From positions 1 through 64,000 of IMG/VR virus record IMGVR_UViG_3300027736_000041: 64,000 nt of DNA. One strand, 5' to 3'. This stretch comes from a virus. A program made the position numbers and the translations under genes. Of the stretch, positions 632 through 16,123 are shown in pieces (the first letter of the stretch is position 1; the number at the start of each line of letters is the position of its first letter). The notes below the pieces were generated by a model. That model did not search any database, was not told the DNA's origin, and worked only from the letters and a program-made list of their open reading frames with translations.

Positions 632-944
632 CGAAGAAGCAGCTTGGCGTGATACCTTCAAGGGTGTTGTGATTATCGACTCGAAGCCATGGATGGATGG
701 CCCACATGGCCTTGTGCCTGTTCGACGCAGTGCTGTCGAACGCTATCGTCGATCAGTTGACGACGCTTATGGACAAGGCTATCATGATGTTGACGCCGTC
801 ATTCAGGGCATTACGGAGCAAGCCTATTGGGAAGCAATCAAGATTGTTTCTGCATTGAAGGCAGACGGCTATAGTCACTTGATTCCCAGTTTGGACGATA
901 ACGATTTGCTTCCACCTCCTCCAGAAGAGCTGCATCTTGTTTAG
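609..944 (+). CDS. hypothetical protein
   Basis: ATG at 609 preceded by GAGGAGG; overlaps the end of the previous gene. Confidence 0.65.
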   Translation: MAGYHRFDEEAAWRDTFKGVVIIDSKPWMDGPHGLVPVRRSAVERYRRSVDDAYGQGYHDVDAVIQGITEQAYWEAIKIVSALKADGYSHLIPSLDDNDLLPPPPEELHLV

Positions 945-976
945 GTCACTGACGGCTCCATGAGCGCACACACTCC

Positions 977-1138
977 ATGAAGATACAAAGCCCGTGTAAC
1001 GATAATTGTCGATCCAAAAATGGAGTGTGTGTCGGATGCAAGCGTACCGTTGAGGAAATCAAGCACTGGCGTGGGTACTCAAATGTCGAGAAACGTGCGG
1101 TGCTTGATCGCATACAAAAAGAGGGGAAACTATCATGA
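977..1138 (+). CDS. DUF1289-like small Cys-rich protein (53 aa, absent from ORF track)
   Basis: MKIQSPCNDNCRSKNGVCVGCKRTVEEIKHWRGYSNVEKRAVLDRI matches the SPC-x3-C-x6-C-x-GC-x-RT-x2-EI-x2-W pattern of DUF1289. Confidence 0.85.
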   Translation: MKIQSPCNDNCRSKNGVCVGCKRTVEEIKHWRGYSNVEKRAVLDRIQKEGKLS

Positions 1139-1215
1139 CTGATCCGCCCAAGCAGTTGACTCCCGGCAAGCCGTATCCGAAGCCGGAAAAAAAAGTCAAG
1201 AAAGGAAAGAAGTAA
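1135..1215 (+). CDS. tiny basic Lys/Pro-rich peptide (26 aa)
   Basis: ATGA overlap with the previous stop, GAGGGG RBS; MTDPPKQLTPGKPYPKPEKKVKKGKK. Confidence 0.45.
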   Translation: MTDPPKQLTPGKPYPKPEKKVKKGKK

Positions 1216-1360
1216 ATAGTTGGAGCAACACAAGTGATGTATGAATCTTGGACTGGCTCATGGTACATTTGGGTTGATGATGTGCCACGAATGCGCATGG
1301 ATCTCAATGAAGACCCCGCATTGTTTCATATGGACATCACCGGAATCAAGGATCGTTGTC

Positions 1361-1867
1361 ATGCCTCATGCTTTTCCTGAAAACTTCTCTCCCCTTCCGG
1401 CCCACGTTGAAAATGACGTAACGTTTGATGTCCCTTCGCATAGGATCGAATGGGACAATCCGTTCTGGAATCGCAAAGTCACTCTTCAGCATTGCGGTTG
1501 TGAAGTGACTCTTCCCGCGAAAGCAGTCTTTTACGGTGTGACAGCCACATGGCATTTTATTTTTGCGGACATCGAACACAAGGATTGTCCGGTCAAGCGT
1601 GGCTACGCCGGATTTGCCACGATTGCGCCTGAAGCATTTATGCCCACCAAGGAGGAGATTGGACGCATGCTTCGGCATGACGATCCGTTTCAAGATTTGG
1701 TGCGTGATGAGTTTTCCCATCCGCTTCGTGCAATGGACGGCTGTGAGATCAAATATCTCGAATCTGTTTGTGAGCATGGCCTGCCCTCTTGGCCTTTGTA
1801 CTTGGACTACTTGCCCACAAAATGGAGCGATGTTCATTCATTGTTGCCAAAGGGGAAGTCAAAATGA
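1361..1867 (+). CDS. hypothetical protein with possible metal-binding Cys/His
   Basis: Frame open from 1241; ATG 1361 has AAGGA upstream; HCGC, HKDC and CEHG motifs; ATGA overlap with the next gene. Confidence 0.65.
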   Translation: MPHAFPENFSPLPAHVENDVTFDVPSHRIEWDNPFWNRKVTLQHCGCEVTLPAKAVFYGVTATWHFIFADIEHKDCPVKRGYAGFATIAPEAFMPTKEEIGRMLRHDDPFQDLVRDEFSHPLRAMDGCEIKYLESVCEHGLPSWPLYLDYLPTKWSDVHSLLPKGKSK

Positions 1868-2511
1868 ATAACGGAGTGTTATCCATGAAGACCACGTATT
1901 CATTTCCCAATACTGGGATAAGAGTAGCACTGGTTGGTGGGGCAGGTTCTGGCAAAGACACGATGGCGTCTATGATTGTGCGTCATGTTGATAATTGCCA
2001 TCGGTTGGCCTTCGCTGATGCATTAAAGAAAGATTCGGATCGCGTCATTCATATGCTTGCTTCAGCATTGGGATTTGAATATCATCCTTTCATGGAACAG
2101 GTGCGTTCAAATGATCCGGACATCAAAAACGTATTGCGTCCTCTTTGGCAGTGGCTAGGAACAGACTTGATTCGGAATACCATTAATCGAAGATATTGGA
2201 TTAATGAACTAGAAGATTCAATGAATAAAATAATAGAATTATCTGAGAAATATATTGTGCCATCATTTGTAATAAGTGACTGCAGATTTGAAAATGAACA
2301 CTCATGGGCCAAGTCGCAGGGATTTGTCTCGATACATGTATCAGGTCTTTGGCAAGGAGACATGAAAAACTTGGATCATGAAAGCGAGAAAGAACACGAT
2401 AGATTTTCTTGCGACATGATTTATTATAATTATGGAACCATGGAAGACATGGAAGATTGGGTCAAGAATACATTGATACCAATGTGCAAAGAAAACTCCT
2501 TGCATGAATAA
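1864..2511 (+). CDS. deoxynucleoside monophosphate (dNMP) kinase, T4 gp1-like
   Basis: P-loop GGAGSGKDT, LAFADALK, RPLWQWLGTD, YW, VISDCRFENE and HESE motifs typical of phage dNMP kinases. Confidence 0.9.
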   Translation: MNNGVLSMKTTYSFPNTGIRVALVGGAGSGKDTMASMIVRHVDNCHRLAFADALKKDSDRVIHMLASALGFEYHPFMEQVRSNDPDIKNVLRPLWQWLGTDLIRNTINRRYWINELEDSMNKIIELSEKYIVPSFVISDCRFENEHSWAKSQGFVSIHVSGLWQGDMKNLDHESEKEHDRFSCDMIYYNYGTMEDMEDWVKNTLIPMCKENSLHE

Positions 2512-2527
2512 TGGAGATATTATTGTT

Positions 2528-2617
2528 ATGAGCAATAATACTTTTGTTTACATGCTTTTTATGGCCATTGCGTATGCATTTATTGTGTTGTCGAGAAAGC
2601 CACCATCCTCATATTGA
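2528..2617 (+). CDS. small single-pass membrane peptide (29 aa)
   Basis: MSNNTFVYMLFMAIAYAFIVLSRKPPSSY; GGAG upstream; stop overlaps the tRNA-Lys 5' end. Confidence 0.4.
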   Translation: MSNNTFVYMLFMAIAYAFIVLSRKPPSSY

Positions 2618-2690
2618 TCTCGTGGCTCAATGGTAGAGCAGCGGACTTTTAATCCGCTGGTTGTGGGTTCGATCCCCACCGAGATCACCA
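2616..2690 (+). tRNA. tRNA-Lys(UUU)
   Basis: GATCTCG/CGAGATC acceptor stem, GCGGA-CT[TTT]AA-TCCGC anticodon arm, GGTTCGATCCC, ACCA end. Confidence 0.96.
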
Positions 2691-2727
2691 TTGACGCAGC
2701 AGTATAATCACATGGGAGGCAACCCGA

Positions 2728-3072
2728 ATGTATATGCGCAAATTCGCGATATCGGCACAGGTCGGTGGTTATGACGATCTGCTGAGGATTGAACGGGTTG
2801 AGACCAAACATTCCATTTCTATTGTGGGAAAACCCATGAAGACATGGGGTCGATTGATAGCAGAGATTCATCCTGATTACAAAGCGCGTGAGCAGATTTG
2901 CTCATTGTTCAGGATAGAAACTCCTGCGTGTGTGGATGAGCAAAAATATCGTGACGAGACTGTTCGTGCAATCCGTCAGGATCAGATTGCAGAATGGTTT
3001 TATGTGATTGCAACGCGCATCAATACGCTGGAAGAGATGCTCATGAACTCACGGCCTCCAGAAAATGATTAA
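2728..3072 (+). CDS. hypothetical protein
   Basis: GGGAGG RBS; 114-aa ORF. Confidence 0.75.
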   Translation: MYMRKFAISAQVGGYDDLLRIERVETKHSISIVGKPMKTWGRLIAEIHPDYKAREQICSLFRIETPACVDEQKYRDETVRAIRQDQIAEWFYVIATRINTLEEMLMNSRPPEND

Positions 3073-3310
3073 GGAATTGCGGCAACCTATTCCAGTGATT
3101 ACGCCCAGAGGCAAAGGCTGGGCGTTTTTTATTATAGACCGCTCACAAGAACATTATCTTGAATGGGTAGTCTTCTTGGATGATGGTGGATGTTGCTGGA
3201 CATTTGCAAATCCTGATATTCGTATTCAAGACAATTGGACGATGGGAAGAAAAAAGATATTTGACTTCAATTATCGTCCTAGTCCCGAAGGAAATGACTC
3301 AAATGATTGA
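3065..3310 (+). CDS. conserved phage hypothetical protein
   Basis: IPVITPRGKGWAFFIID...WVVFLDDGG..W...NPDIR; overlaps both neighbours. Confidence 0.75.
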   Translation: MIKELRQPIPVITPRGKGWAFFIIDRSQEHYLEWVVFLDDGGCCWTFANPDIRIQDNWTMGRKKIFDFNYRPSPEGNDSND

Positions 3311-3593
3311 TTCGGAAAAATTCATCATGTCAAATAATCAATCAGAGTCTATACTAAAAGCTATAGACTCATTGATTCAAGTTGACATTGCACTGCGATC
3401 AGGAGAGATATATGATAATTTAGGAGGTATTGATGCAGATGATTTGGTTATATGTGTCATAAAACTGATAGAGTCGTTTTATGGAACCAATAAGATGTTT
3501 GATGAGATGCTTGAGAATTCAGGCACAAGAGATGCAGCCTTGCGTAAAAAACAAAAAATGCGATTGACTTTTAAGAGTGATATAATCAACTAA
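3303..3593 (+). CDS. hypothetical protein
   Basis: AAGGA upstream; in-frame ATG overlapping the end of the previous gene. Confidence 0.6.
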   Translation: MIDSEKFIMSNNQSESILKAIDSLIQVDIALRSGEIYDNLGGIDADDLVICVIKLIESFYGTNKMFDEMLENSGTRDAALRKKQKMRLTFKSDIIN

Positions 3594-3636
3594 TAAAAGG
3601 CACAGGGATTGTCGAGACACGCTGAAAGGGACGACT

Positions 3637-3855
3637 ATGGACAATAGGAGATCAAACGATGATGCATGGAAAAGCAAGATGATCATCGACATCTTAAAAG
3701 CAGTAAGTGCTCAAGATGAAGATCGAGCAGATAAATTGTTTTTGACGTTTGCATCAGCGTTTTTTCAAGATTATCATAAAGAAAAAGATCGAAAAATGGC
3801 AGAATATCATGCCACTGGAGCAGTAGATCGCTTGCAATCACAGGAGAAACAGTAA
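3637..3855 (+). CDS. small helical protein A1 (paralog of 5169..5405)
   Basis: AAGGGA RBS; IIDILKAVSAQDEDRADKLF resembles KIIECVEARDEDAVDHYF. Confidence 0.8.
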   Translation: MDNRRSNDDAWKSKMIIDILKAVSAQDEDRADKLFLTFASAFFQDYHKEKDRKMAEYHATGAVDRLQSQEKQ

Positions 3856-3856
3856 C

Positions 3857-4993
3857 ATGAAGAAAAAGGAAAACTTTTTTTCATTTACTGTATGGCCTCA
3901 TGAAACGGGACGATTGCGCAAAGCAGGTGAGCCAGCAGAAATTGGAAAAGTTCCATTTAGTCCAGAACACATGTCTCCTCCACCAGCTAGCATGCGCCCC
4001 GAACATGTGACGTTTGAAGGAAGTCCCGGAGGTTCCCAATCATTCGGTTGGAATCAAAAAAGACATCCCTCGGGTACAGGAGGATTTGATGGACGAGGCA
4101 CCTATACGTCCGGTTATACCGCGCGACCCGCCGGTTTTTATAGCGATAATGCAACTGGAAAAAAGTGGGTGTTCAAGCCCGGTGTCGATACAGGTGATGT
4201 TGACGGAGCATGGAAGCCGAAGGGCAGTCCTAAAGACCCGCATGGCGCAGGATACGGTGCGAGGCTAGAACATGCAGCCGACAAATTAGTCTCATTTTTT
4301 GCTACTCCACGGAATGGATACCGACCACTACCATCATACTTATATAGTGACACGACAGGAGAAAGAATTCCTGATGGCACTCCAGCGAAAAAGGGAGAGC
4401 CTGTTTTTAGGGTAATACCTCATCTGGGTCCGAACAGTAGCGAGATGGAATATGACACTCCGCCAGAAATTGTGGATCGTTTAAAAAGAGGAAGTCTAGT
4501 CGATGCTTTTTTTGGATTGGGGGATCAACATGGCGGCAATGTCATGTACACAAATGACCCGGACGGCAAAACATCTGATGGCCCCTATCGCATTGACATG
4601 AACAATGGACTGGGAAGACGAGCAAGAGGATTCTTGTTGGTAAAACCCGGAATTATGGGACGGAACAGTCCGGAGCCTCACACATGGCACGACACAAGTT
4701 CCACTGATTTCCTCACGCCTCTTGCAAATCATTACCGATACAACTTTCGCGGAGTTCCTCCTCACTTTGATCCTGATCACGAATTGAAAGTTGCACAGGA
4801 CATGATTGATGCACGCACTGCAGACCCGGAAGGGTTTGAACGCATTTTCGAGCATCTTCCAAACAAGGACGAGCATTTAGAATCTGCAAATCTTAGATTC
4901 AAGTTATTAAAAGAAATGGTGGAAAAATACAAGGGAAATCCGGAAGCAATGAGACAAGATTTGACCAGAAAAATATCAGAGTCAGGCAGATAG
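3857..4993 (+). CDS. atypical kinase-fold protein (PI3/PI4K/HipA-like), copy 1
   Basis: AGGAG RBS; beta3 Lys motif WVFKP, alphaC-like RLEHAADKL, catalytic loop DAFFGLGDQHGGNVM (D-x-H-x-x-N), metal-binding YRIDMNNGLG. Confidence 0.75.
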   Translation: MKKKENFFSFTVWPHETGRLRKAGEPAEIGKVPFSPEHMSPPPASMRPEHVTFEGSPGGSQSFGWNQKRHPSGTGGFDGRGTYTSGYTARPAGFYSDNATGKKWVFKPGVDTGDVDGAWKPKGSPKDPHGAGYGARLEHAADKLVSFFATPRNGYRPLPSYLYSDTTGERIPDGTPAKKGEPVFRVIPHLGPNSSEMEYDTPPEIVDRLKRGSLVDAFFGLGDQHGGNVMYTNDPDGKTSDGPYRIDMNNGLGRRARGFLLVKPGIMGRNSPEPHTWHDTSSTDFLTPLANHYRYNFRGVPPHFDPDHELKVAQDMIDARTADPEGFERIFEHLPNKDEHLESANLRFKLLKEMVEKYKGNPEAMRQDLTRKISESGR

Positions 4994-5007
4994 CCGGGAG
5001 ATTACGC

Positions 5008-5151
5008 ATGAACAGTGACATTCAGAAGATCGTAGCGCCAGTGCGTGAGCAATTGGCTGCCGCAGCACGAAGCGGTGACGTAAAAGCAGCGCAAAGAGTG
5101 CTGATGTCGGTTATGCTCGCATTTGAGAAGCATTCATTGGCTGACAAGTAG
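5008..5151 (+). CDS. small helical protein B1 (47 aa, absent from ORF track; paralog of 6594..6749)
   Basis: GGGAG RBS; MNSDIQKIVAPVREQLAAAARSGDVKAAQRVLMSVMLAFEKHSLADK. Confidence 0.75.
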   Translation: MNSDIQKIVAPVREQLAAAARSGDVKAAQRVLMSVMLAFEKHSLADK

Positions 5152-5168
5152 GATAGGAGAGCAACATC

Positions 5169-5405
5169 ATGGAGCAGCAGAGAAACGGTGTGATGCCAGT
5201 TCAGGCGTCACCAGATATTCTTGGATTAGTCCAGAAGATCATCGAGTGCGTCGAGGCAAGGGATGAGGATGCCGTCGATCATTATTTTGGTGAACTGGTA
5301 GATCATTTTTCTCATGATCATCATGCAGCGACAATTCAGCAATATGCAGAGCGCCAACGTGTGGCTCATGAAATAGCCATGGGGGGCGGCGATGAGCAGT
5401 ATTAA
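5169..5405 (+). CDS. small helical protein A2
   Basis: AGGAGAG RBS; similar to 3637..3855; overlaps the start of kinase copy 2. Confidence 0.8.
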   Translation: MEQQRNGVMPVQASPDILGLVQKIIECVEARDEDAVDHYFGELVDHFSHDHHAATIQQYAERQRVAHEIAMGGGDEQY

Positions 5406-6597
5406 ATCAGGATGGTTCGCAAGGGCAATCTGGCCGCATAATGCGATGCTCTGGAAAGCGGGAGAGTGGTCTCCTCCGCCACATGGTGAACTAAGCGAAA
5501 GAGTTCCTATTCCAGATCATGCTGCTCCACCAGAACATCTTGATCATATGACCATTGATCCGAGCGCATCGACGCATGGAACATCATTTAGGTTGAACGA
5601 CAGAAAAAATAAGGTGAATCCATCTTCGACTGGGGGATTTGATGGATCAGGACTCCATAATTCGGGATATGGAAAGCGCATACCATCTTTTTACGACACC
5701 CCAGAAGGACACAAGTGGGTAGTCAAAAGCGCAGTTGATGGAAATACTTTTGAACCTACATGGACACTGGGAGGGCATGGAAAAATCCTTCCCAATGGGA
5801 TGCGTGATGATTCCGGTGGCGGACCAGACCGCTGGGGAGCAGGATACGGAGCGAGATGTGAGCATGCTTGCGACAAGATTTACAATTTTTTTGCCACTAA
5901 GAGAAACAATATTCTGCCAATGCCAACCTATCTCTATGATGATCGCACTGGAACACGGATAGACGGTCAACCATACGCACCGGGTCCAGCATATCGAGTA
6001 ACTCCCCATCTTGGGCGGGATGCAACGACCGGAGACGGCGTGTACGACACCACAAGAGATGATATTCAGCGAAAAGGCACTAACGGATTGATGGTTGATG
6101 CATTTGTCGGTGCCGGAGATTTGCAAGGCAGCAACTACATGATCAAGCCAAATCCATCTACAGGTGAATACGATGGAGTGTATCGCATTGACAATAATAA
6201 TGCGCTTGGAAGAAGAGCCAAAGGTATTGAATTGTATGAGCGAGATAGTCAAACTGGTGAATTAGGATGGGTGCCGGGAAGTTGGCATGATACGACTACA
6301 AAAGATTTTGTTGATAACTTGAGATATACAGGAATACTGAGTAAGTTAAATCGTGGAATGTATAACAAGGGCACATTCATTGATGGTCAGCACATTCTTG
6401 ATACTGCTAAAGACATGGTAAAACAATATGAAGAAAATCCTGAAGAATTTGCATCAATTTTTGATCATATGCCAAACAAGGAGGAACATGTGGCTGCCGC
6501 TGCACATCGGATCGGCTTGATCAGGAAGATGATCGCAGAGTATCATTCACAACCTGATTTGCTTAAAGAACACATTCTGAACGGAAAACCGAAATGA
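5392..6597 (+). CDS. atypical kinase-fold protein (PI3/PI4K/HipA-like), copy 2
   Basis: Collinear paralog of 3857..4993 (TGGFDG, GAGYGAR, PHLG, WHDT, HxPNKxEH); WVVKS, RCEHACDKI, DAFVGAGDLQGSNYM, YRIDNNNALG. Confidence 0.72.
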   Translation: MSSIKSGWFARAIWPHNAMLWKAGEWSPPPHGELSERVPIPDHAAPPEHLDHMTIDPSASTHGTSFRLNDRKNKVNPSSTGGFDGSGLHNSGYGKRIPSFYDTPEGHKWVVKSAVDGNTFEPTWTLGGHGKILPNGMRDDSGGGPDRWGAGYGARCEHACDKIYNFFATKRNNILPMPTYLYDDRTGTRIDGQPYAPGPAYRVTPHLGRDATTGDGVYDTTRDDIQRKGTNGLMVDAFVGAGDLQGSNYMIKPNPSTGEYDGVYRIDNNNALGRRAKGIELYERDSQTGELGWVPGSWHDTTTKDFVDNLRYTGILSKLNRGMYNKGTFIDGQHILDTAKDMVKQYEENPEEFASIFDHMPNKEEHVAAAAHRIGLIRKMIAEYHSQPDLLKEHILNGKPK

Positions 6598-6749
6598 TGA
6601 GTCCAGAAATGATCGACATGATCGGCCATGCACAACGCGACTTGGAAAAGGCGACTCGTGATGGAGACAAGGAAACCGCACGAGCAATCATCCTTCACAT
6701 TATTTCCATGTTTCGAGAAAATGGCATCAAGCCAAGGGCCATACGGTAA
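6594..6749 (+). CDS. small helical protein B2 (51 aa, absent from ORF track)
   Basis: ATGA overlap with the kinase-2 stop and TAATG overlap with the HD gene; LEKATRDGDKETARAIILHIISMF resembles LAAAARSGDVKAAQRVLMSVMLAF. Confidence 0.75.
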   Translation: MMSPEMIDMIGHAQRDLEKATRDGDKETARAIILHIISMFRENGIKPRAIR

Positions 6750-7477
6750 TGGAAGGTTCGGGTGGTGAACCATTTTCCTTATCGGGAACAAAAGGAATAT
6801 GGACACCTGAACATTCGGCTCAAGTTGGACAGTACCTTGCTACGAGTGTGCCCGGACTTGTTGGTGTTCCACAAGGACGAGGACATCAGGGTAATGATCC
6901 TGTGGCTCATACCGTCATGGGGCTAAACTATTGCATGAATAATCCGTCAGATGCCACTCATGGATTGCCGAAAAGAGCCGCACAGTTGTTGCGTCTGGCT
7001 TTTTCGTTTCATGACTTGGGCAAGGTAAACGGCGGAAAGCGTAATTATACTCATCAAAAATCATCATATAAAATTGCTCTTCCATTTTTAAAGCAATTTT
7101 CTCTGACACCAGAAGAGCATGAAACAGTTAAAACACTAATTCATCACCACCACGCGTTTGGCGATTTGTTTGCCCACTTAAGAAGATCACAGGATGAAGT
7201 ATACAAAGACCCGTCTGATCATGGAGACGGAATTGTTGATGAGAAAAAATTTGTGCGCATTGCAAGAACACCGGAAATGGGAGACTTGTTGGCTCGAATG
7301 TGGCATGCTGATTACGGCGGAATGGGAAATGATGGACGCAAGTCTGGATTGCTCTTTAAAACCAGAAAGGCCATCATGAATCATGTTGCGCCGTTTTTTG
7401 AAGAAACTCAAAAATCCTTATGGGTGACGCAAGTACCATTTCCATTTGCTCGATGGATGATTGTTGCGGACGTATGA
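6749..7477 (+). CDS. HD-domain phosphohydrolase
   Basis: H...HT...LLRLAFSFHDLGK...HQKSS...LIHHH...WHAD: the H-HD-H-H-D arrangement of HDIG/CCA-associated-type HD domains. Confidence 0.85.
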   Translation: MEGSGGEPFSLSGTKGIWTPEHSAQVGQYLATSVPGLVGVPQGRGHQGNDPVAHTVMGLNYCMNNPSDATHGLPKRAAQLLRLAFSFHDLGKVNGGKRNYTHQKSSYKIALPFLKQFSLTPEEHETVKTLIHHHHAFGDLFAHLRRSQDEVYKDPSDHGDGIVDEKKFVRIARTPEMGDLLARMWHADYGGMGNDGRKSGLLFKTRKAIMNHVAPFFEETQKSLWVTQVPFPFARWMIVADV

Positions 7478-7997
7478 TGTTCTATGTCCCCGAGGTTATA
7501 CTAGTAATGTCGTGGTCACTGATGGTGTTGATACACTCAGTGCTTTACGAAAATCTATTTCTTTTTTCCATTTAAGGAGATTTGTCTTGGACGAACCTAG
7601 TAAGTGGTTTCATTCAATGGTTGAGGAATACATTAATGAGATGTCAACACGAATCCTCAATCTTCCTCAAGTGAATACAAGAGTTAATTATCAAGAAATG
7701 GGAATATATGCCTCGATTTCTAGAGTAAAGCAAATTGCGGCAATTGTTATTGAGGCACAAAATGGCATCAACTCGTTTCCGTCCAACAGAGATTTTGCTG
7801 CATATCTTGAACAAAAAGTACTGGAGATACGCGAACAGAGCATAAGGAGTAAAGTTATTGCAGAAGGCCAGTTGATGGGTCACGAAGTCATTGGCGAAAT
7901 CATGAAGACGATTAACAAGGCTCTTGGAATAGAGGACGACGACTCCCAGAAACAGCAAGAAGACGATCAGGAACTTATTCCGTTTATCTTAAAATGA
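7461..7997 (+). CDS. hypothetical protein
   Basis: 178-aa ORF continuing the operon; start uncertain. Confidence 0.65.
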   Translation: MLRTYDVLCPRGYTSNVVVTDGVDTLSALRKSISFFHLRRFVLDEPSKWFHSMVEEYINEMSTRILNLPQVNTRVNYQEMGIYASISRVKQIAAIVIEAQNGINSFPSNRDFAAYLEQKVLEIREQSIRSKVIAEGQLMGHEVIGEIMKTINKALGIEDDDSQKQQEDDQELIPFILK

Positions 7998-8006
7998 GAA
8001 AGCCAA

Positions 8007-8480
8007 ATGATAAGTAGCAGCAGGAAGTCCATAACGTGGCGTCCGGGAGGATTGCGTGCGGCATCAGACGGAGATCGTTGGATACCAGCAGAAGGCAGGA
8101 CTGGCTTTCTGAATGGCAACAGGGTTATTGAGGAGCCCAATCCATTCGGTCGTTTGATTAGGTCACTCTTCAGCAAAAATCTGTCACTTCAGATTGATGA
8201 AGAGCCAAACATGCTTAACACCCCTGATGAGGTTTATGACGCAATCATGACGAAATTCTTCAAAGAGAAGAGTTACGAATTAAAAAAATCCGGTATCAAG
8301 ATCAGTATTGCATTGTTCGTGATCGACAACAGTGGCGATCATCCAGCGTCATGCGGCTGGATCATACTGGTTCCGAATGGAACACCCGGACGTATGACTT
8401 CTCGTGAGACATGGATTGTAAATAGCGACATCCGACTTGAAGATCATCAGTCTTCCGTGGATGCTCTTGACATTCCCTAG
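8007..8480 (+). CDS. hypothetical protein
   Basis: 157-aa ORF, same strand, short spacing. Confidence 0.65.
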   Translation: MISSSRKSITWRPGGLRAASDGDRWIPAEGRTGFLNGNRVIEEPNPFGRLIRSLFSKNLSLQIDEEPNMLNTPDEVYDAIMTKFFKEKSYELKKSGIKISIALFVIDNSGDHPASCGWIILVPNGTPGRMTSRETWIVNSDIRLEDHQSSVDALDIP

Positions 8481-8495
8481 TGCATGCTGTATCGT
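8467..8495 (+). promoter_or_regulatory. sigma70-type promoter
   Basis: TTGACA-17 nt-TATCGT, about 60 nt upstream of a gene with an AAGGAGG RBS. Confidence 0.65.
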
Positions 8496-8555
8496 TCCCT
8501 TGTGAGGCAATCAGTCGATGATTGGCCAGTCACCTACACTACAAGGAGGCAAGTG

Positions 8556-8999
8556 ATGCCCAATTTTCAGAAGGCAAAGATTGCTGATTCATCCGAATCG
8601 GTTGATCTGACGCCATATCTCAAGTTCCTTGAGACGATAGAGATCGGCTACAAGGTACAGGTTCCTCTTGAGAAGGGGGAAACCACTCGCAAGACCATGC
8701 GTCTCTTTAATCGGGCAGCCAAGAAGATTGGCAAGCGATTGGGTCGGGTCTCATCGGATAGTTCCACCGCAGCGTTCCGGGTTCTTCCCTTGGAGAAGCG
8801 TTCATCCAACATCACTGAGGATGCGCGTCGTGCGCGTGTTGAGAAGGCCAAGGCCACTCGGGATGCGCGACGTGCCACTATCTCGACTGTTGCTTCAGTT
8901 TCTGCTGTTGTTGACATGAAGGATGATCGGTACGCATCCGACAAGAACAATCCTCATATTGCTGAGGCGATTGCTGCTATCGAGGCGCTGGAGCGCTAA
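8556..8999 (+). CDS. basic putative DNA-binding protein
   Basis: AAGGAGG RBS; LEKGETTRKTMRLFNRAAKKIGKRL followed by an Arg/Ala-rich helix. Confidence 0.7.
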   Translation: MPNFQKAKIADSSESVDLTPYLKFLETIEIGYKVQVPLEKGETTRKTMRLFNRAAKKIGKRLGRVSSDSSTAAFRVLPLEKRSSNITEDARRARVEKAKATRDARRATISTVASVSAVVDMKDDRYASDKNNPHIAEAIAAIEALER

Positions 9000-9032
9000 G
9001 AGACCTTCTGCCGTACTAGTTTAAGTTCTTAG

Positions 9033-9084
9033 GCTTCTAGTTCTTTTTTAATAGTTTTTATACTGTTATAAAGGGGCTAGAAGC
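9033..9084 (+). promoter_or_regulatory. RBS-occluding hairpin upstream of the holin-like gene
   Basis: GCTTCTAG/CTAGAAGC closing stem; TTCTTTT pairs with AAAGGGG (SD); TAATAGT pairs with ACTGTTA. Confidence 0.6.
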
Positions 9085-9330
9085 ATGAGATTACATGATG
9101 ATCCTTCAATCATTGAATTAGTTGCATCAGTCATTGCTTTAATGGCAGTTGGTGCAATTATTTGGTCAGCAACATGGGATCAGTCTGCTGCGGCGCAGAC
9201 AGCATTGACGGGCCTTGTCGGGGCTGCTGCTAGCTTTTTCTTGACTCCCAAGGGCACCAATGGCTATGGAAACGGATCGTCCAAGGAATTGCCGAAAAAA
9301 GCAGAGCCTCCTTCTGCATCTCCCTTGTGA
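9085..9330 (+). CDS. small two-TM membrane protein (holin-like)
   Basis: Two hydrophobic segments (LVASVIALMAVGAIIW; ALTGLVGAAASFFL) and a charged C-tail. Confidence 0.6.
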   Translation: MRLHDDPSIIELVASVIALMAVGAIIWSATWDQSAAAQTALTGLVGAAASFFLTPKGTNGYGNGSSKELPKKAEPPSASPL

Positions 9331-9344
9331 TGCACACAAGTCTT

Positions 9345-9430
9345 GCCGGAATGATGAAATGGCAGACATACCTGACTTAAAATCAGGAGGCGGCTAATCC
9401 GCCGTGTGGGTTCGACTCCCACTTCCGGTA
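9345..9430 (+). tRNA. tRNA-Leu(UAA)
   Basis: GCCGGAA/TTCCGGT acceptor, CCTGA-CT[TAA]AA-TCAGG anticodon arm, long variable arm GGCGG-CTAAT-CCGCC, GGTTCGACTCC; followed by CCG rather than CCA. Confidence 0.93.
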
Positions 9431-9450
9431 CCGTGGGAGGCAATCTGTTG

Positions 9451-9479
9451 TTGACATGGCACTCGTTGCCGTGTATGCT
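9451..9479 (+). promoter_or_regulatory. sigma70-type promoter
   Basis: TTGACA-17 nt-TATGCT. Confidence 0.7.
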
Positions 9480-9531
9480 TAGGATGACTCAGGAAACAGA
9501 GAGAGTATTTTTGCTTACTGTTTGCTGGTCA

Positions 9532-9576
9532 GAGGTCTCTGAGAAGTTGCCTCCCCTCAGAGACCTCACTTTTTTT
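9532..9576 (+). terminator. intrinsic terminator
   Basis: 12-bp perfect stem GAGGTCTCTGAG/CTCAGAGACCTC followed by AC and T7. Confidence 0.8.
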
Positions 9577-9591
9577 CTGGAGAAAATAGTC

Positions 9592-11583: not shown

Positions 11584-11592
11584 TCGTAAGGC

Positions 11593-11725: not shown

Positions 11726-11743
11726 GTTTGTATGATAAGAGTT

Positions 11744-12754
11744 ATGAGTACAACGATTGAATCACTAAAAGAACATCGTAAATCGTTAGTCGCAGATGGT
11801 ATTAATGCCACCTTTGAGGTACCTCTGCGATTTACGAAGTCTTTCGTAGGCGAATATACAAACATCAATGGCGAAAAAAAGACCGGAAGAATTATTGAGG
11901 GCATTGCCTCTACGGAAGCAGAGGACCAGCAAGGCGAGATTGTTCTTCAGGAAAAAATGGATTGTTCGTATCTGCTAGAGAAAGGTTACCTGAATTGGAA
12001 CCATAGTCATGCCCCTGAAGATCAGATCGGCAAGCCACTTGAAGTCATCAAAATGGAAGGTGGACCGGAGACGCCAAATCAGCGTGCCTGCACGTTTTTT
12101 CGTGCCTTGTTGCTAGAAGGAGTACCTCGTGCAGAGGCCGTCTGGAACTTGGCGAAGTCCCTAGAAGACTCCCGAGGAATGGGCAATGAGCGTTCATTAG
12201 GATTTTCGGTTGAAGGAGGTGTGCGACTCAGACAGGGAAATATTCTCGTGGAGACAGTCGTGCGTCACATGGCTGCCACACATGAACCTGTCAATGCACA
12301 GAGTATTGCGCGATGTGTAATGGCAAAAAGTCAAGGATTTAAAGTTCCTGACAGTGTGCTTATTGACACCATGGATTCAAACATGCCTCACTTTATATTT
12401 AACTCTTACTCGCAAATGGTAAAATCCATTGTTCCGGCCATGGACAAAACCATGTCAGTTGGAGATGCAGGTGCAGGAGGACTGCTACTGGAAAACCTGC
12501 ATGGCATATCAGATCGAGATGGATTGCGCAAAAATGAAGGTGATGAATTAAGCCCTCAAATGATATTAAATGAACTTTATAATCCTTGCACAGACGGTAG
12601 AGAGTGTGTGAAAAACGATAAGTTCATTGGTGGTCATCACGGTGCGCTTGATCATCTGGTGCATTGCCGGGGAATGTCTCCGTCAAAAGCTTCAGATGCA
12701 ATGGTAATCGTCATTCATGATTTGCGTAATCAAAAGAAAAAGCGCGGAAATTAA
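11744..12754 (+). CDS. prohead (capsid maturation) protease, Herelleviridae-like
   Basis: IEGIASTEAEDQQGEIV...GYLNWNHS...IGKP...LGFSVEG; lies directly upstream of the scaffold and capsid genes. Confidence 0.88.
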   Translation: MSTTIESLKEHRKSLVADGINATFEVPLRFTKSFVGEYTNINGEKKTGRIIEGIASTEAEDQQGEIVLQEKMDCSYLLEKGYLNWNHSHAPEDQIGKPLEVIKMEGGPETPNQRACTFFRALLLEGVPRAEAVWNLAKSLEDSRGMGNERSLGFSVEGGVRLRQGNILVETVVRHMAATHEPVNAQSIARCVMAKSQGFKVPDSVLIDTMDSNMPHFIFNSYSQMVKSIVPAMDKTMSVGDAGAGGLLLENLHGISDRDGLRKNEGDELSPQMILNELYNPCTDGRECVKNDKFIGGHHGALDHLVHCRGMSPSKASDAMVIVIHDLRNQKKKRGN

Positions 12755-14521: not shown

Positions 14522-16123
14522 ATGGCTCTGTTAACAGATTTTCCCACAGGATACAAGAAGCCGGAAGCGCTCAATAAGTCGTTCGACATGATTGTGCGGG
14601 ACTGGTCACGTCAGCAGTTTGGCGGAGACTCGGTTGTCGAGGAAATTCGCAAGGCTCTGAACACTGGTGTTTACAACCAGATCGCAGGCGTATCGGCAGC
14701 ACCGGGTGAGGCTACAGCGCTTCGTCTGGAAAACCTTGACAACACGATGACCTCGGTTCTTGCAACCGCGGAGCATCTCAAGATTTTCCGCTTTCTTCAC
14801 AAGGAGCCGTCGAAGCAGCCATTCTATCAGTGGAACCGTCGTGAGTCTTATGGTTCCACCCGTGGGTTCTTCGGATTTGCCGAAGGTGGACTCCCGCAGG
14901 GTGGCAAGGGCCAGTGGAGCCGTCAAGGGGCGTATGTCAAGTTTCTCGGAACGAAGGGTGGGGTTACTCATCCGGTTGTCCTGACGAATATCCTTGGCGG
15001 AATGTCGATGGACCCGGTCGCTGAGGATCAGCTTGGTCGTACCATGGACTTCATGCAGCGTATTGAAAGAGCCGTTCTGTACGGTGATGATGATATCCTT
15101 GATAATGGTGGTACCGATACGAACTATGACGGACTGTTGAAGTCCCTCACCCGGCAGCGGGCCAAGAATGTCATTGACCTTGCTGGCAAACCCCTCAACC
15201 TCGATACGATTGCTGGCGCTGCGACCAAATTGGTCACCGAAGGCAAGTTGCTTTCGTTTCAAGACCTGACACTGTTCATGTCGCCGCAGAATATCGAAGA
15301 CCTTGGCAAGTTGCGATACAACACCTACATTGGTTCTGGATCGATCACTGGGCCGGGTACCACGGTTGATCGTGCCGACCTGACCACAAGTGCCCGTAAC
15401 AACCTCATTGCTGGTTTGTCGGTGGTTGGTCAGTCCACATCGTTTGGTGTCATTCCTTTCGAGTGGTCGATTTTCACAGAGCCGGTCGAGAGTGGCCTGC
15501 CTCTGAACCTCACGTCCAATCAGGCTGATACTGGCGCTCCAGCCGCTCCTTCAGCGACCTTTGGCGGATTAACAGCCATTCGTGCCTCGACCAATACGTC
15601 GGCTACGTCGAACTTCGCGGGTGGAGCGAAGAACTATTGGTACATGATTTCTTCAGTCAATGACGTTGGAGAGTCCCTTGGTACGGTGATGACTGGAGTG
15701 AAGTCCATCAACACCAATCAGGAAGCGTATCTGCAGTTCAGTCGCGTTACGGGATCGGGCCTCACTCAGGCTCGTGCCTATCGTATCTATCGCGTACAGA
15801 AGACTGCTGAGCCGACAGCGACTGATCCCGGATGGCGGTTCGTTGGCTATGTCGCCGACCCTAACAGCGGCAGCGGTGTTGATTTTATCGACCGCAATGG
15901 CACAAGCGAACTCTACAACAACTTCATGCCGGACACCAATGTTGCGCCATTGATTTGTCGCAATCCGGCCGATCTTGTTGTGGCACAGATGTCGCCACTG
16001 CTCAAGATGCCGCTCGCTCCTGTTAGCACGACGTTTGAGTATCTGCTTCTCCTGTATCACACCCTTGTTCTCAAGGCACCGGAGCGCCAGATTATCTTCA
16101 AGAACGTTGGTGCTTTAACATAA
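14522..16123 (+). CDS. major capsid protein (SPO1/Twort-like) with FN3/Ig-like insertion
   Basis: AGGAGGAG RBS; ALRLENLDNTMTSV, IERAVLYGD, YDGLLK, NVIDLAGKPL, PLLKMPLA, LLLYHTLVLKAPERQIIFKNV; insertion APAAP...YWYMISSVNDVGES. Confidence 0.92.
   Translation: MALLTDFPTGYKKPEALNKSFDMIVRDWSRQQFGGDSVVEEIRKALNTGVYNQIAGVSAAPGEATALRLENLDNTMTSVLATAEHLKIFRFLHKEPSKQPFYQWNRRESYGSTRGFFGFAEGGLPQGGKGQWSRQGAYVKFLGTKGGVTHPVVLTNILGGMSMDPVAEDQLGRTMDFMQRIERAVLYGDDDILDNGGTDTNYDGLLKSLTRQRAKNVIDLAGKPLNLDTIAGAATKLVTEGKLLSFQDLTLFMSPQNIEDLGKLRYNTYIGSGSITGPGTTVDRADLTTSARNNLIAGLSVVGQSTSFGVIPFEWSIFTEPVESGLPLNLTSNQADTGAPAAPSATFGGLTAIRASTNTSATSNFAGGAKNYWYMISSVNDVGESLGTVMTGVKSINTNQEAYLQFSRVTGSGLTQARAYRIYRVQKTAEPTATDPGWRFVGYVADPNSGSGVDFIDRNGTSELYNNFMPDTNVAPLICRNPADLVVAQMSPLLKMPLAPVSTTFEYLLLLYHTLVLKAPERQIIFKNVGALT

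What the first reader, a model, noticed from the sequence alone, without database searches (positions are those of the whole stretch)
3637..7477. Tandemly duplicated 'small protein - atypical kinase - small protein' module ending in an HD phosphohydrolase
Seen: gene order A1(72 aa)-K1(378)-B1(47)-A2(78)-K2(401)-B2(51)-HD(242), tightly spaced, with ATGA and TAATG overlaps across K2-B2-HD. B1 and B2 are missing from the ORF track. A1 resembles A2 (AVSAQDEDRADKLF / CVEARDEDAVDHYF) and B1 resembles B2 (AAARSGDVKAAQRVL / KATRDGDKETARAII). All four share a helix-(G/Q/R)D-helix pattern, so they may be one family. Established: K1/K2 motifs (VFKP Lys, alphaC Glu, D-x-H-x-x-N, IDN) are those of the PI3K/PI4K/HipA atypical-kinase fold; HipA/HipT kinases are toxins controlled by small partners (HipB, HipS); HD domains are phosphohydrolases. 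Inference: a phage-encoded writer/eraser or toxin-immunity system, with two diverged kinases, cognate small regulators and a reversing enzyme, acting in host takeover, anti-defence or superinfection exclusion. I do not recognise this architecture as described.
Basis: partly seen in the sequence, partly recalled or inferred. Interest (0 to 1): 0.85.

Follow-up and report, generated by a model that had tools for sequence, protein, structure and literature searches.

The report
Duplicated atypical kinase module in phage
An uncultured freshwater phage carries two old copies of a three-gene unit (small protein, unusual kinase-like enzyme, small protein) followed by an HD hydrolase that bears the kinase family's signature peptide; these are probably enzymes the phage turns on its host, perhaps delivered inside the capsid, but nothing has been tested at the bench.

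Summary
Seven tightly packed genes, A1-K1-B1-A2-K2-B2-HD, lie at 3637-7477 of a 72-kb uncultured freshwater myovirus contig. The A-K-B unit is an ancient block duplication: K1/K2 E 2e-74, and A1/A2 and B1/B2 each beat 1000 of 1000 shuffles. A and B are not one family.

K1 and K2 belong to a very rare family, 22 clusters among 1.84 billion proteins, with no Pfam model. K, E, D..N and D are conserved. The predicted fold is protein-kinase-like and closest to CtkA, CotH, PI4K-II and HipA (Z 11-14).

New here: relatives also occur as two or three paralogues per contig. The family has a conserved N-terminal peptide (PFPFxxW...LxK[A/S]), and the HD protein carries that exact peptide at its C-terminus. 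Structural neighbours among viral proteins are kinase domains fused to portal, head-morphogenesis and ADP-ribosyltransferase proteins.

The best reading is host-directed effector kinases, possibly capsid cargo, each with its own small partners. The HipA-type toxin-antitoxin and writer/eraser readings have no specific support.

This scan has noted similar leader-tagged phage kinases on other DNA, so I class it as a new variant of a known kind. All function is inferred.

The parts
3637..3855 (+). A1, 72-aa small protein, upstream partner of K1
   Evidence: ORF. Homologous to A2: BLASTP E 3e-6; Smith-Waterman z 8.5, 0 of 1000 shuffles. No family in Pfam, PHROGs, PADLOC or NCBIfam.
3857..4993 (+). 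K1, 378-aa atypical protein-kinase-like enzyme with a canonical catalytic loop (GDQHGGN ... RIDMNN)
   Evidence: Paralogue of K2. Invariant K107, D223, D247 and near-invariant E138, N228 in the 21-sequence family alignment. AlphaFold2 pLDDT 76.5, pTM 0.80. Best structural matches: CtkA Z 13.7, CotH 12.4, PI4K-II alpha 11.9, HipA 11.2.
3857..3925 (+). K1 N-terminal leader (residues 1-23), a degenerate family motif ending in LRK|A
   Evidence: Family N-terminal motif. Near-invariant K22. Disordered in the model: pLDDT below 50 for residues 1-35.
5008..5151 (+). B1, 47-aa small protein, downstream partner of K1
   Evidence: ORF. Homologous to B2: Smith-Waterman z 7.4, 0 of 1000 shuffles. 4 of 4 shown strain variants are synonymous.
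5169..5405 (+). A2, 78-aa small protein, upstream partner of K2; overlaps the K2 start by 14 nt
5392..6597 (+). K2, 401-aa paralogous kinase with an altered catalytic loop (GDLQGSN: Asp and Asn kept, His replaced by Gln) and a 14-residue insertion
   Evidence: Keeps the invariant Lys, Glu, Asp, Asn and Asp columns.
5392..5460 (+). K2 N-terminal leader (residues 1-23), ending in LWK|A
6594..6749 (+). B2, 51-aa small protein; ATGA overlap with K2 and TAATG overlap with HD
6749..7477 (+). HD-domain protein, 242 aa
   Evidence: PF01966: E 8e-5, 23.3 bits against a cut-off of 22. H53, H88-D89, HHHH132-135 and H186/D188 are conserved in homologues at 92% and 75% identity. Weak matches to the Cas3 HD and GlnD HD regions.
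7436..7456 (+). C-terminal PFPFARW peptide of the HD protein, identical to the consensus of the kinase family's N-terminal motif
   Evidence: Top hit of the family N-terminal motif HMM among 352 ORFs of the contig. The only PFP[FLMY] in the six-frame translation of the 72,074-nt contig. Conserved in both HD homologues, while the residues after it vary.
8484..8999 (+). 171-aa ORF of unknown family; a candidate third bearer of the W-P ... F-x-K|A leader
   Evidence: The pattern W.P...[LFMIV].K[AS] occurs 3 times in the 60-gene set, all at residues 13-14: K1, K2 and this ORF. One extra hit against 0.033 expected, P 0.03. The pattern was defined after the fact.
11732..12754 (+). Prohead (head maturation) protease; context, and the candidate enzyme that would cut the leaders
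   Evidence: phrog_1028, E 6.7e-29. Its own N-terminal region carries F-T-K|S.
14522..16123 (+). Major head protein; context, with an N-terminal F-P-x-x-Y ... L-N-K|S
   Evidence: phrog_752, E 1.3e-45. Motif found.

Best explanation
K1 and K2 are two anciently duplicated, probably active members of a rare, phage-restricted family of atypical protein-kinase-like enzymes. Their fold class is that of CtkA, CotH, type II PI4K and HipA. I read them as host-directed effector kinases. They most likely phosphorylate host (or phage) proteins, and they are probably loaded into the prohead and delivered with the DNA.

Proposed mechanism. The conserved N-terminal peptide (PFPFxxW-P ... L-x-K followed by A or S) would be a targeting leader that the prohead protease removes after the Lys. 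The HD phosphohydrolase, which carries the same PFPFARW peptide at its C-terminus, would use the same receptor and travel or act with the kinases. Each kinase keeps its own pair of small proteins (A upstream, B downstream). These would be cognate partners, inhibitors or chaperones that hold the kinase in check or ready it in the producing cell.

Shown: gene anatomy, duplication, kinase fold and catalytic residues, the shared peptide, and recurrence of kinase paralogue pairs.

Inferred: protein substrates, packaging, cleavage, any binding of A or B, and any chemical link between the HD protein and the kinases.
For: Fold and active site.
- K107, D223 and D247 are invariant, and E138 and N228 are at least 90% conserved, across 21 sequences.
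- The AlphaFold2 model has pLDDT 76.5 and pTM 0.80.
- In a search of 48,161 PDB representatives that does not depend on Foldseek, all 50 rows shown are kinases of the protein-kinase-like fold or complexes that contain one. The top rows are CtkA Z 12.9 (rmsd 3.9, 217 aligned), CotH 12.3, PI4K-II alpha 11.7, actin-fragmin kinase 11.2 and HipA 10.9.
- The profile-against-PDB search puts the PI3K, mTOR and PI4KA catalytic-loop-to-DFG stretch on top, but only at E 0.055.

Rarity and phage restriction.
- 22 hits at E <= 0.001 among 1,835,955,588 representatives.
- Every listed member comes from metagenome sources, with no NCBI or UniRef record.

Paralogue sets recur.
- L005 has kinases of 538 and 392 aa in tandem with a 100-aa ORF between them.
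- P0003 and P0007 share three contig lengths, and P0006, P0013 and P0014 share one.
- P0019 holds two kinase domains.

Leader.
- 12 of the 20 distant clusters start with a PFPF-type motif, and K22 is near-invariant.
- The motif HMM's best hit in the contig is the HD C-terminus. It is the only PFP[FLMY] in six frames and is conserved in the HD homologues.

Cleavage-site lead.
- [LFMIV]-x-K-[AS] lies within the first 40 residues in 9 of 16 genes of 3637-16123, including the protease, a scaffold-like protein and the major head protein. Elsewhere it does so in 3 of 44 genes (Fisher P 1e-4).
- In L005 it does so in 6 of 11 genes.

Cargo context.
- BFVD structural neighbours of K1 include proteins annotated as portal (1201 aa, E 1.2e-4), ADP-ribosyltransferase, head morphogenesis domain and Nudix.
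- L005 has a 1313-aa ART-PolyVal protein and an SNase nuclease just upstream of its kinases.
- Iyer et al. 2017 (PMC5512222, passages read) describe kinase-bearing polyvalent phage proteins predicted to be packaged and injected.
- Benler et al. 2021 (PMC8008677, passages read) report a HipA-family kinase between portal and capsid genes.

Small partners.
- A, K and B were duplicated and kept as a unit.
- B1 is under purifying selection: 4 of 4 shown variants are synonymous.
Against: - No experiment and no virion proteome exists for this phage or any relative.
- The K|A/S enrichment was defined after the fact. It rests on a crude longest-ORF gene set that includes doubtful ORFs, and two of its nine hits (A1, B2) lie in helices whose paralogues lack the site.
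- The HD protein has the peptide at its C-terminus with no K|A/S site after it. The N-terminal resemblance that I saw by eye scores below zero. The peptide may therefore be a docking motif for something other than the prohead.
- The module is separated from the head protease by about 4 kb, which holds three unknown ORFs, a membrane-protein-like ORF and a tRNA. No portal gene was identified nearby.
- In L005 the kinases sit next to a DNA polymerase III alpha gene, not next to head genes, and have no HD partner.
- K1 and K2 are single-domain proteins, not polyvalent ones.
- Substrate class is open. The nearest folds include lipid kinases (PI4K-II, MavQ, VPS34) and a sugar kinase family (Fam20) as well as protein kinases.
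- K2 lacks the catalytic-loop His, and its shown variants are 8 non-synonymous to 6 synonymous.
- The A and B HMMs find nothing in the longer kinase homologues, so there is no fusion evidence for binding.
Confidence: 0.4

Rival explanations
1. These are host-takeover or anti-defence kinases made inside the infected cell and not packaged. K1 and K2 would be expressed from the incoming genome and would phosphorylate many host proteins, as the T7 kinase does. The N-terminal peptide would be a docking or regulatory motif, and HD, A and B would be accessory factors.
For: - Kinase fold with intact catalytic residues.
- The module follows nucleotide-metabolism and tRNA genes, namely a dNMP kinase and tRNA-Lys, which are typical of non-structural regions.
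- In L005 the kinases adjoin a DNA polymerase III alpha gene.
- Precedent: the T7 kinase phosphorylates host proteins widely and disarms defences (PMC13645617, search listing and start of abstract only; T7 kinase also cited in PMC8008677 and PMC5512222, passages read).
Against: - It does not explain why the peptide sits at the extreme N-terminus, followed by a conserved Lys-Ala/Ser, across very divergent members.
- It does not explain why the same short site is enriched at the N-termini of the protease, the scaffold-like protein and the capsid protein.
- It does not explain why the nearest viral structural neighbours are annotated as portal, head-morphogenesis or ADP-ribosyltransferase proteins.
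Confidence: 0.25
2. This is a toxin-antitoxin, abortive-infection or superinfection-exclusion module. The two kinases would be toxins, as in HipA/HipT or the two kinases of the prophage KKP module. The small proteins, the HD enzyme, or both would neutralise them.
For: - HipA and HipT are among the structural neighbours (Z 10-11).
- Each kinase has tightly coupled small genes.
- KKP shows that two kinases can act jointly as a toxin with a phosphatase as antitoxin (PMC11341870, abstract and passages read).
Against: - No Pfam HipA family, no HTH and no HipS-like partner.
- No PADLOC match for K, A or B.
- KKP uses Hanks-type kinases (PF00069) and a PP2C phosphatase (PF13672), neither of which is present here.
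- The element looks like a large virulent-type myovirus. The 14 window ORFs outside the module that were put to PHROGs or Pfam gave no integrase or repressor family, though one ORF (9406-10680) has sub-threshold HTH hits.
- The family is absent from genome-derived records.
- No HD protein is known to me as a Ser/Thr/Tyr protein phosphatase (recalled).
- The L005 relative lacks an HD gene.
Confidence: 0.1
3. These are small-molecule, lipid or glycan kinases working with a nucleotide-directed HD hydrolase. The module would belong to the phage's metabolic or DNA-modification genes, and the small ORFs would be unrelated fillers.
For: - Nearest folds include lipid kinases (PI4K-II, MavQ, VPS34) and the Fam20 family. 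Language-model neighbours include LepB_N clusters (lead only).
- A dNMP kinase lies 1.3 kb upstream.
- HD domains are mostly nucleotide phosphohydrolases (established knowledge of PF01966).
- Paralogous kinase pairs are known in phage thymidine hypermodification (PMC5889632, passages read).
Against: - The DNA-base kinases of those pathways are P-loop kinases, a different fold (PMC8989533, passages read).
- None of the partner enzymes of those pathways turned up among the window ORFs that were scanned.
- Most bacteria lack phosphoinositides (recalled).
- It does not explain the shared terminal peptide or the retention of cognate small genes through the duplication.
Confidence: 0.12

Closest known systems
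Kinase domains of phage polyvalent or capsid-cargo proteins (Iyer, Burroughs, Anand, de Souza, Aravind 2017, PMC5512222), and the 'PI3K/PI4K catalytic domain-containing' proteins of uncultured Caudovirales and Halorubrum virus HSTV-2 in BFVD
   Same: Phage-encoded kinase-fold effector domains. The structural neighbours of K1 in BFVD carry portal, head-morphogenesis, ADP-ribosyltransferase and Nudix annotations. One relative locus has an ART-PolyVal protein close by. Some relatives are long (925-1275 aa), and one has two kinase domains.
   Different: K1 and K2 are stand-alone single-domain proteins with their own small flanking genes. The kinase domain described in that paper is a truncated Ser/Thr/Tyr-kinase type that lacks the C-terminal subdomain (passages read). 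K1 has a full helical C-lobe. There is no sequence-level match to any phage record. Their alignment file S2 was not seen.
CtkA of Helicobacter pylori and the HipA/HipT kinases (PDB 3akk, 4pu5, 7ab3, 8ezr)
   Same: Best structural matches: Z 13.7 for CtkA and 10-11 for HipA/HipT. They share a D-x-H-x-x-N type catalytic loop and a small-gene neighbourhood.
   Different: Sequence identity is 7-13%. There is no Pfam HipA hit, no HipB-like HTH and no HipS-like partner. The family is not found in bacterial genomes. The N-terminal PFPF leader is, as far as I recall, not part of the description of HipA.
Type II phosphatidylinositol 4-kinases and the PI3K/PI4K catalytic domain (PF00454)
   Same: G-x-G-D-x-H-x-x-N catalytic loop and an I-D-x-G/N metal-binding stretch aligned to PI3K alpha. 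Foldseek's best PDB hit is PI4K-II alpha at E 3.8e-4. VIA-align gives Z 11.9.
   Different: Below Pfam's threshold: no hit for K1 or K2, and 17.3 bits against 27.1 for relative P0005. TM-scores are only 0.28-0.34. A lipid substrate is unlikely in most bacteria (recalled).
HipA-family kinase of the 'Gratiaviridae' gut phages (Benler et al. 2021, PMC8008677)
   Same: A stand-alone atypical kinase in a large uncultured phage, encoded close to head genes and of unknown role.
   Different: No detectable sequence similarity to any record in the phage collection. I did not check whether Gratiaviridae genomes are in that collection. That kinase is a single copy accompanied by an AAA ATPase and a glycosyltransferase. 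The authors proposed cell-envelope modification. Their HHpred file (Additional file 10) was not seen.
KKP kinase-kinase-phosphatase module of temperate prophages (PMC11341870)
   Same: Two paralogous kinases next to a hydrolase that could reverse them. In KKP the two kinases must act together.
   Different: KKP has Hanks-type kinases with CSD and FHA domains and a PP2C phosphatase, in prophages, in the order phosphatase-kinase-kinase. Here there are atypical kinases, an HD domain, extra small genes and a virulent-type myovirus.
Phage T4 Alt and the internal proteins with a capsid-targeting sequence
   Same: The model for the proposed mechanism: enzymes that carry a short N-terminal leader, are loaded into the prohead, are trimmed by the prohead protease and are injected. 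This rests on established knowledge and on the summary in PMC5512222 (passages read).
   Different: The chemistry differs (ADP-ribosylation there), as do the leader and the cleavage motif (after Glu in T4, recalled). Packaging is not shown here.

Membership tests
Protein-kinase-like (PKL) fold superfamily | Two-lobed kinase fold | tested here: met
   AlphaFold2 pLDDT 76.5, pTM 0.80. All 50 rows shown in the search of 48,161 PDB representatives are kinases of this fold or complexes that contain one, with top Z 12.9. pdb_via top Z is 13.7, rmsd 4.2 over 234 residues.
Protein-kinase-like (PKL) fold superfamily | Catalytic residues: beta3 Lys, alphaC Glu, catalytic-loop Asp and Asn, metal-binding Asp | tested here: met
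   K107, D223 and D247 are invariant; E138 and N228 are at least 90% conserved in 21 sequences. All are present in K1 and K2. Their placement in the three-dimensional active site was not inspected.
PI3K/PI4K catalytic domain (Pfam PF00454) | Score above Pfam's gathering threshold | tested here: not met
   No hit for K1 or K2 at E <= 1. Among the 20 relatives scanned, one (P0005) scored 17.3 bits against a cut-off of 27.1.
PI3K/PI4K catalytic domain (Pfam PF00454) | G-D-R-H-x-x-N catalytic loop and I-D-F-G activation start (motif recalled) | tested here: inconclusive
   K1 has GDQHGGN and RIDMNN. K2 has GDLQGSN and RIDNNN. The profile aligns this stretch to PI3K alpha at E 0.055 only.
HipA/HipT toxin kinases | HipA_C or HipA_N family match | tested here: not met
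   No Pfam or NCBIfam hit. Structural Z is 10-11, no better than for other atypical kinases.
HipA/HipT toxin kinases | Adjacent HipB (HTH) or HipS antitoxin | tested here: not met
   A1, A2, B1 and B2 match no family in Pfam, PHROGs, PADLOC or NCBIfam.
HipA/HipT toxin kinases | Growth arrest on expression, relieved by the partner | not testable with these tools
   Needs expression experiments.
Phage polyvalent or capsid-cargo effector proteins (Iyer et al. 2017) | Several unrelated enzymatic domains in one polypeptide | tested here: not met
   K1 and K2 are single-domain proteins. Longer relatives exist, but their extra parts match no Pfam family.
Phage polyvalent or capsid-cargo effector proteins (Iyer et al. 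2017) | Fusion or linkage to portal, MuF or other virion genes | tested here: inconclusive
   Structural neighbours in BFVD carry portal, head-morphogenesis and ART names. The module lies 4.3 kb upstream of the head protease. L005 has an ART-PolyVal protein nearby, but DNA polymerase III alpha on the other side.
Phage polyvalent or capsid-cargo effector proteins (Iyer et al. 2017) | Presence in the virion and delivery into the host | not testable with these tools
   Needs virion proteomics. Only sequence leads are available.
KKP kinase-kinase-phosphatase module | Two PF00069 kinases (with CSD and FHA domains) and a PF13672 PP2C phosphatase | tested here: not met
   None of these families is found in K1, K2 or HD.
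HD-domain metal-dependent phosphohydrolases (PF01966) | Pfam threshold and the H...HD...D motif | tested here: met
   23.3 bits against a cut-off of 22, E 8e-5. H53, H88-D89, H132-135 and D188 are conserved in homologues at 92% and 75% identity. The 75% homologue carries PF01966 in the precomputed table. The margin is narrow and the subfamily is unassigned.
5-hydroxymethyluracil DNA kinases of thymidine-hypermodifying phages | P-loop kinase fold | tested here: not met
   Those enzymes are P-loop kinases (PMC8989533, passages read). K1 has the protein-kinase-like fold. K2 has no tblastn match to any phage record.

The most novel reading that the evidence does not exclude
A freshwater myovirus loads a small enzymatic kit into its capsid: two paralogous atypical kinases and an HD hydrolase. 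All three are recognised through one short PFPFxxW tag, which is N-terminal and clipped after Lys on the kinases and C-terminal on the HD protein. Each kinase is kept silent in the producing cell by its own A/B pair of mini-proteins. On injection the kinases phosphorylate host proteins before any phage gene is expressed, giving a pre-made, broad anti-defence or takeover device. The tag would define an undescribed cargo-addressing system shared by a rare kinase family across unrelated phages.
Probability: 0.2. Interest if true: 0.8.

Novelty: new variant of a known kind. Interest (0 to 1): 0.55.

Why it matters
Phage kinases are coming into view as broad tools against bacterial defences; the T7 kinase is the studied case. 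Apart from T7 and 933W, very few have been studied, and I found no bench study of an atypical (PI4K/HipA-like) phage kinase.

This locus offers a compact, testable set:
- two diverged kinases, each with its own small partners;
- a hydrolase tied to them by a seven-residue peptide;
- a candidate leader and cleavage site.

If the leader addresses proteins to the capsid, it would be a simple rule for finding injected effectors in metagenomic phages and a handle for loading foreign proteins into capsids. If it is instead a docking motif for a host protein, it would point to the kinases' target. Either result would assign a role to a family that currently has no annotation in any library.

Tried and rejected
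Searches and tests that gave nothing or were rejected.

1. BLASTP of B1 against B2 gave no alignment. I replaced it with Smith-Waterman plus 1000 shuffles.

2. 'A and B are one family' is rejected. A1-B1, A2-B1 and A2-B2 are not significant, and A1-B2 has z 2.2.

3. Fusion (Rosetta-stone) test. HMMs of A1+A2 and of B1+B2 were run against K1, K2, 21 database proteins of the family (P0002-P0022) and the two L005 kinases. The best scores were -0.2 and -0.6 bits, below the best of 50 shuffled copies at 7.7 and 4.2 bits. The 'RRGD' resemblance that I saw in the tails of P0014 and P0017 is therefore chance.

4. The first AlphaFold2 job (K2 with a two-sequence alignment) gave pLDDT 33 and was not used.

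5. Nothing in the phage collection by blastn (whole module) or tblastn (K2). Nothing for K1/K2-type queries in viral, metagenome or genome contigs.

6. The L005 small ORF (100 aa) against A and B: z at most 2.5. tblastn of HD, A and B against L003 and L005 gave no hit below E 0.5.

7. The HD N-terminus as a second copy of the motif: -2.6 and -3.5 bits in the two homologues. Not supported.

8. The 5-hydroxymethyluracil DNA kinase idea is rejected, because those enzymes are P-loop kinases.

9. PADLOC and NCBIfam found nothing for K, A or B.

10. Promoter and terminator scan of 1-12500: 25 promoter-like sites against 20.5 +/- 5.2 in shuffles, and 10 terminator-like sites against 10.3 +/- 3.4. No operon boundaries or timing can be read from it.

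11. Complex prediction with K1, B1 and A1 (partner A1) returned 'no answer'. Scores were 0.57, 0.56 and 0.67. The control with K1 replaced scored 0.53. The controls with the partner replaced scored 0.00 and 0.01. This is not evidence for or against binding.

12. Read laying. All four runs are contigs, so depth, transcript ends and expression cannot be read. Short contigs of a run filed as RNA lie on parts of A1-K1, K1-B1, A2-K2 and K2-B2, but this does not show transcription. Stretches without cover mean nothing. 25 further variant rows were not shown.

13. Literature. Searches found no paper on this kinase family, on the triad or on the PFPF peptide. They were keyword searches of open-access text only and are not exhaustive.

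14. Rows left out. Alignment A2 omits P0001 (99% identical to K2), P0019 (two-domain protein) and P0020 (a repetitive, probably false hit).

Full report
WHAT IS THERE

The window is the first 64,000 bases of a 72,074-base IMG/VR virus record with an estimated completeness of 41%. All large genes lie on the + strand. Markers include:
- a dNMP kinase (phrog_139, E 4.8e-37) and a head maturation protease (phrog_1028, E 6.7e-29);
- a major head protein (phrog_752, E 1.3e-45) and a tail sheath (phrog_279, E 7e-62);
- three tRNA genes.

This is a large contractile-tailed phage. The nearest cultured capsid proteins, at 25.7% identity, are those of the 179-kb Bacteroides DAC phages, followed by SPO1-like Bacillus phages. 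Contigs at least 99% alike lie on the module in freshwater or lake runs of four studies other than the possible source.

The seven ORFs of the finding are exactly as described, with the stated overlaps.

THE DUPLICATION

K1 and K2 are clear paralogues: 38% identity, E 2e-74. A1 and A2 are homologous: E 3e-6, z 8.5 with 0 of 1000 shuffles reaching the score. BLASTP missed B1 against B2, but they align end to end without gaps at z 7.4, again 0 of 1000.

The whole unit of about 1.55 kb was therefore duplicated, and each part was kept. Only about 50-nt islands of 75% DNA identity remain. A and B are not detectably related to each other.

B1 is a real gene. The four variant positions shown within it in a related strain are all synonymous third-position changes. 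For comparison, the shown variants are 11 synonymous to 8 non-synonymous in K1 and 6 to 8 in K2. 25 further variant rows were not displayed.

THE KINASES

Neither Pfam, PHROGs, PADLOC nor NCBIfam gives a meaningful match for K1 or K2; the only rows are chance-level ones at E 0.07. A word-based search of 5.8 billion proteins found only K2 itself.

A full HMMER search of 1.84 billion cluster representatives, using a K1+K2 profile, found 22 proteins at E <= 0.001. Eleven were at <= 1e-10. Two of the 22 are the window's own types (P0001 and P0002), and one (P0020) is a repetitive, probably false hit. Every listed member comes from metagenome assemblies.

In an alignment of 21 of these sequences, K107, D223, D247 and R347 (K1 numbering) are invariant. 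E138 and N228 are at least 90% conserved. These are the Lys, Glu, Asp...Asn and Asp of a kinase active site. P0001, P0019 and P0020 were left out of this alignment.

With that alignment AlphaFold2 gave pLDDT 76.5 and pTM 0.80. A first attempt with two sequences failed at pLDDT 33.

Structure searches gave the following:
- Foldseek's best PDB hits are type II PI4-kinases at E 3.8e-4.
- VIA-align on Foldseek's own list gives CtkA Z 13.7 (rmsd 4.2, 234 residues), CotH 12.4, PI4K-II alpha 11.9, HipA 11.2, HipT 10.9, Fam20 10.6, VPS34 10.4 and MavQ 9.9.
- An independent pass over 48,161 PDB representatives returns the same ranking. Every one of the 50 rows shown is a kinase of this fold or a complex that contains one.
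- A sequence profile against the PDB puts the catalytic-loop-to-DFG stretch of PI3K alpha, mTOR and PI4KA on top, but only at E 0.055.

Membership in PF00454 or in the HipA family is not met.

K1 has the full D-x-H-x-x-N loop. K2 has D-L-Q-G-S-N, which another first-stage note on this genome also flagged.

WHAT THE RELATIVES ADD

There a 538-aa and a 392-aa family member stand in tandem. A 100-aa ORF lies between them. It overlaps the first kinase by ATGA and ends two bases before the second kinase begins.

That ORF is not significantly similar to A or B, and no HD gene is present. The HD link is not general, but 'two kinases with a small coupled ORF' recurs.

Upstream in L005 lie an SNase nuclease and a 1313-aa protein with an ART-PolyVal domain (34.4 bits against a cut-off of 31.2). 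Downstream lie a 185-aa ORF and DNA polymerase III alpha.

Cluster tables give more evidence for paralogue sets. P0003 and P0007 share the contig lengths 7123, 7774 and 7888. P0006, P0013 and P0014 share 11349. This is an inference from lengths, not from sequence. P0019 contains two kinase domains.

THE SHARED PEPTIDE

Twelve of the 20 distant clusters begin with a PFPF-type motif a few residues from the start, followed by W or Y, often P, and then L-x-K-A/S. K1 (FFSFTVWP...LRKA) and K2 (WFARAIWP...LWKA) have degenerate forms. The Lys is near-invariant.

I built an HMM of this N-terminal stretch from 13 distant members only and ran it over all 352 ORFs of the contig. The best hit was the C-terminus of the HD protein...QVPFPFARW... 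(8.1 bits), ahead of K1 itself. This is the only PFP[FLMY] in the six-frame translation of the 72-kb contig.

The peptide is kept in HD homologues at 92% and 75% identity, while the residues after it change. This is the one specific link between HD and the kinases beyond adjacency.

A CLEAVAGE-SITE LEAD

The short pattern [LFMIV]-x-K-[AS] lies within the first 40 residues of 9 of 16 genes between 3637 and 16123. These are K1, K2, the ORFs at 7461 and 8484, the head protease, a scaffold-like protein and the major head protein, plus A1 and B2. Elsewhere on the contig it does so in 3 of 44 genes (Fisher P 1e-4; expected about 0.07 per gene). In L005 it does so in 6 of 11 genes.

The longer pattern W-P...[LF]-x-K-[AS] occurs three times in the proteome, always at residues 13-14: K1, K2 and the ORF at 8484.

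These patterns were defined after looking at the data, and the gene set is crude. The A1 and B2 hits are probably chance, because their paralogues lack the site. Another first-stage note on this genome (e1-6180457, title only) proposes the same idea. I treat all of this as a lead.

VIRAL STRUCTURAL NEIGHBOURS AND LITERATURE

In BFVD the best matches to the K1 model are:
- a 1201-aa 'phage portal protein' (E 1.2e-4);
- 'PI3-/4-kinase catalytic domain' proteins of uncultured Caudovirales and of a haloarchaeal tailed virus;
- ADP-ribosyltransferase-annotated giants, including one from a Mycobacterium phage;
- a Nudix protein and a head-morphogenesis-domain protein.

This is the domain company described for polyvalent proteins, which are predicted to be packaged and injected (PMC5512222, passages read). 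Other relevant papers:
- Benler et al. found a HipA-family kinase between portal and capsid genes of gut phages (PMC8008677, passages read).
- KKP modules show two kinases acting jointly against a phosphatase (PMC11341870, abstract and passages read).
- The T7 kinase disarms defences by mass phosphorylation (PMC13645617, listing and start of abstract only).

Other agents of this scan have reported leader-tagged PI4K/HipA-like kinases, some with small partner genes, in other phage genomes. These are unchecked notes. They show that the theme recurs, not that it is true.

THE HD PROTEIN

The HD protein passes Pfam's HD threshold narrowly, and the H...HD...H...D residues are conserved in its two homologues. 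Weak matches to the Cas3 HD and GlnD HD regions and language-model neighbours do not settle whether it is a nuclease or a nucleotide or protein-adduct hydrolase.

VERDICT

- Shown: the anatomy, the block duplication, the kinase fold with catalytic residues, the rarity and phage restriction of the family, the recurrence of paralogue pairs, and the shared PFPFARW peptide.
- Inferred with moderate confidence: host-directed effector kinases with cognate small partners.
- Inferred with lower confidence: capsid loading by the leader and trimming after Lys.
- Without specific support: HipA-type toxin-antitoxin, and writer/eraser with HD as a protein phosphatase.

I class it as a new variant of a known kind, namely phage effector or cargo enzymes. 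Interest is moderate to good because the locus is compact and every step is testable.

Noticed in passing
L005:4016-6397: Two adjacent paralogous genes (381 and 401 aa, no Pfam family) begin with the same roughly 30-residue N-terminal leader (MLLLKIFRKA...). They lie between a 1313-aa ART-PolyVal protein and the kinase pair, and so look like another leader-tagged set in an unrelated phage.
   Followed up: partly
window 7205-7459 (HD residues 152-237): The C-terminal third of the HD protein has a weak phmmer match (E 0.0019, 21 bits) to a region of pyruvate formate-lyase or formate acetyltransferase chains, around a GGMG-DGR stretch. This is probably chance, but it is unexplained.
   Followed up: no
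window 22530-27845 and 32474-36685: Two giant paralogous proteins (1771 and 1403 aa) share repeated matches to phrog_19989 and phrog_8084. Another first-stage note reads them as beta-propeller fibre proteins.
   Followed up: no
window 42080-48028: A 1982-aa protein between the tail genes and the baseplate-like genes has a metallopeptidase region (phrog_14988, phrog_7767) and a weak minor-head-protein match.
   Followed up: no
window 11593-11622: The best sigma-70-like site of the first 12.5 kb (TTGACA-18-TATGAT, 11 of 12) lies just before the head protease gene. Sites at 8467 and 9451 match 10 of 12. The overall count is not above that of shuffles.
   Followed up: no
proteins P0019, P0004 and P0007-P0015 (family relatives): P0019 has two kinase domains in one 1119-aa chain. 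P0004 has a weak N-terminal ASCH match (E 0.004). Several relatives carry C-terminal extensions of 200-700 residues with no Pfam family.
   Followed up: partly
window 9406-10680: A 424-aa ORF that starts inside the predicted tRNA-Leu (9345-9432) has only sub-threshold HTH matches (HTH_31 at 23.8 bits against a cut-off of 27). No portal gene was recognised between the module and the head protease.
   Followed up: no
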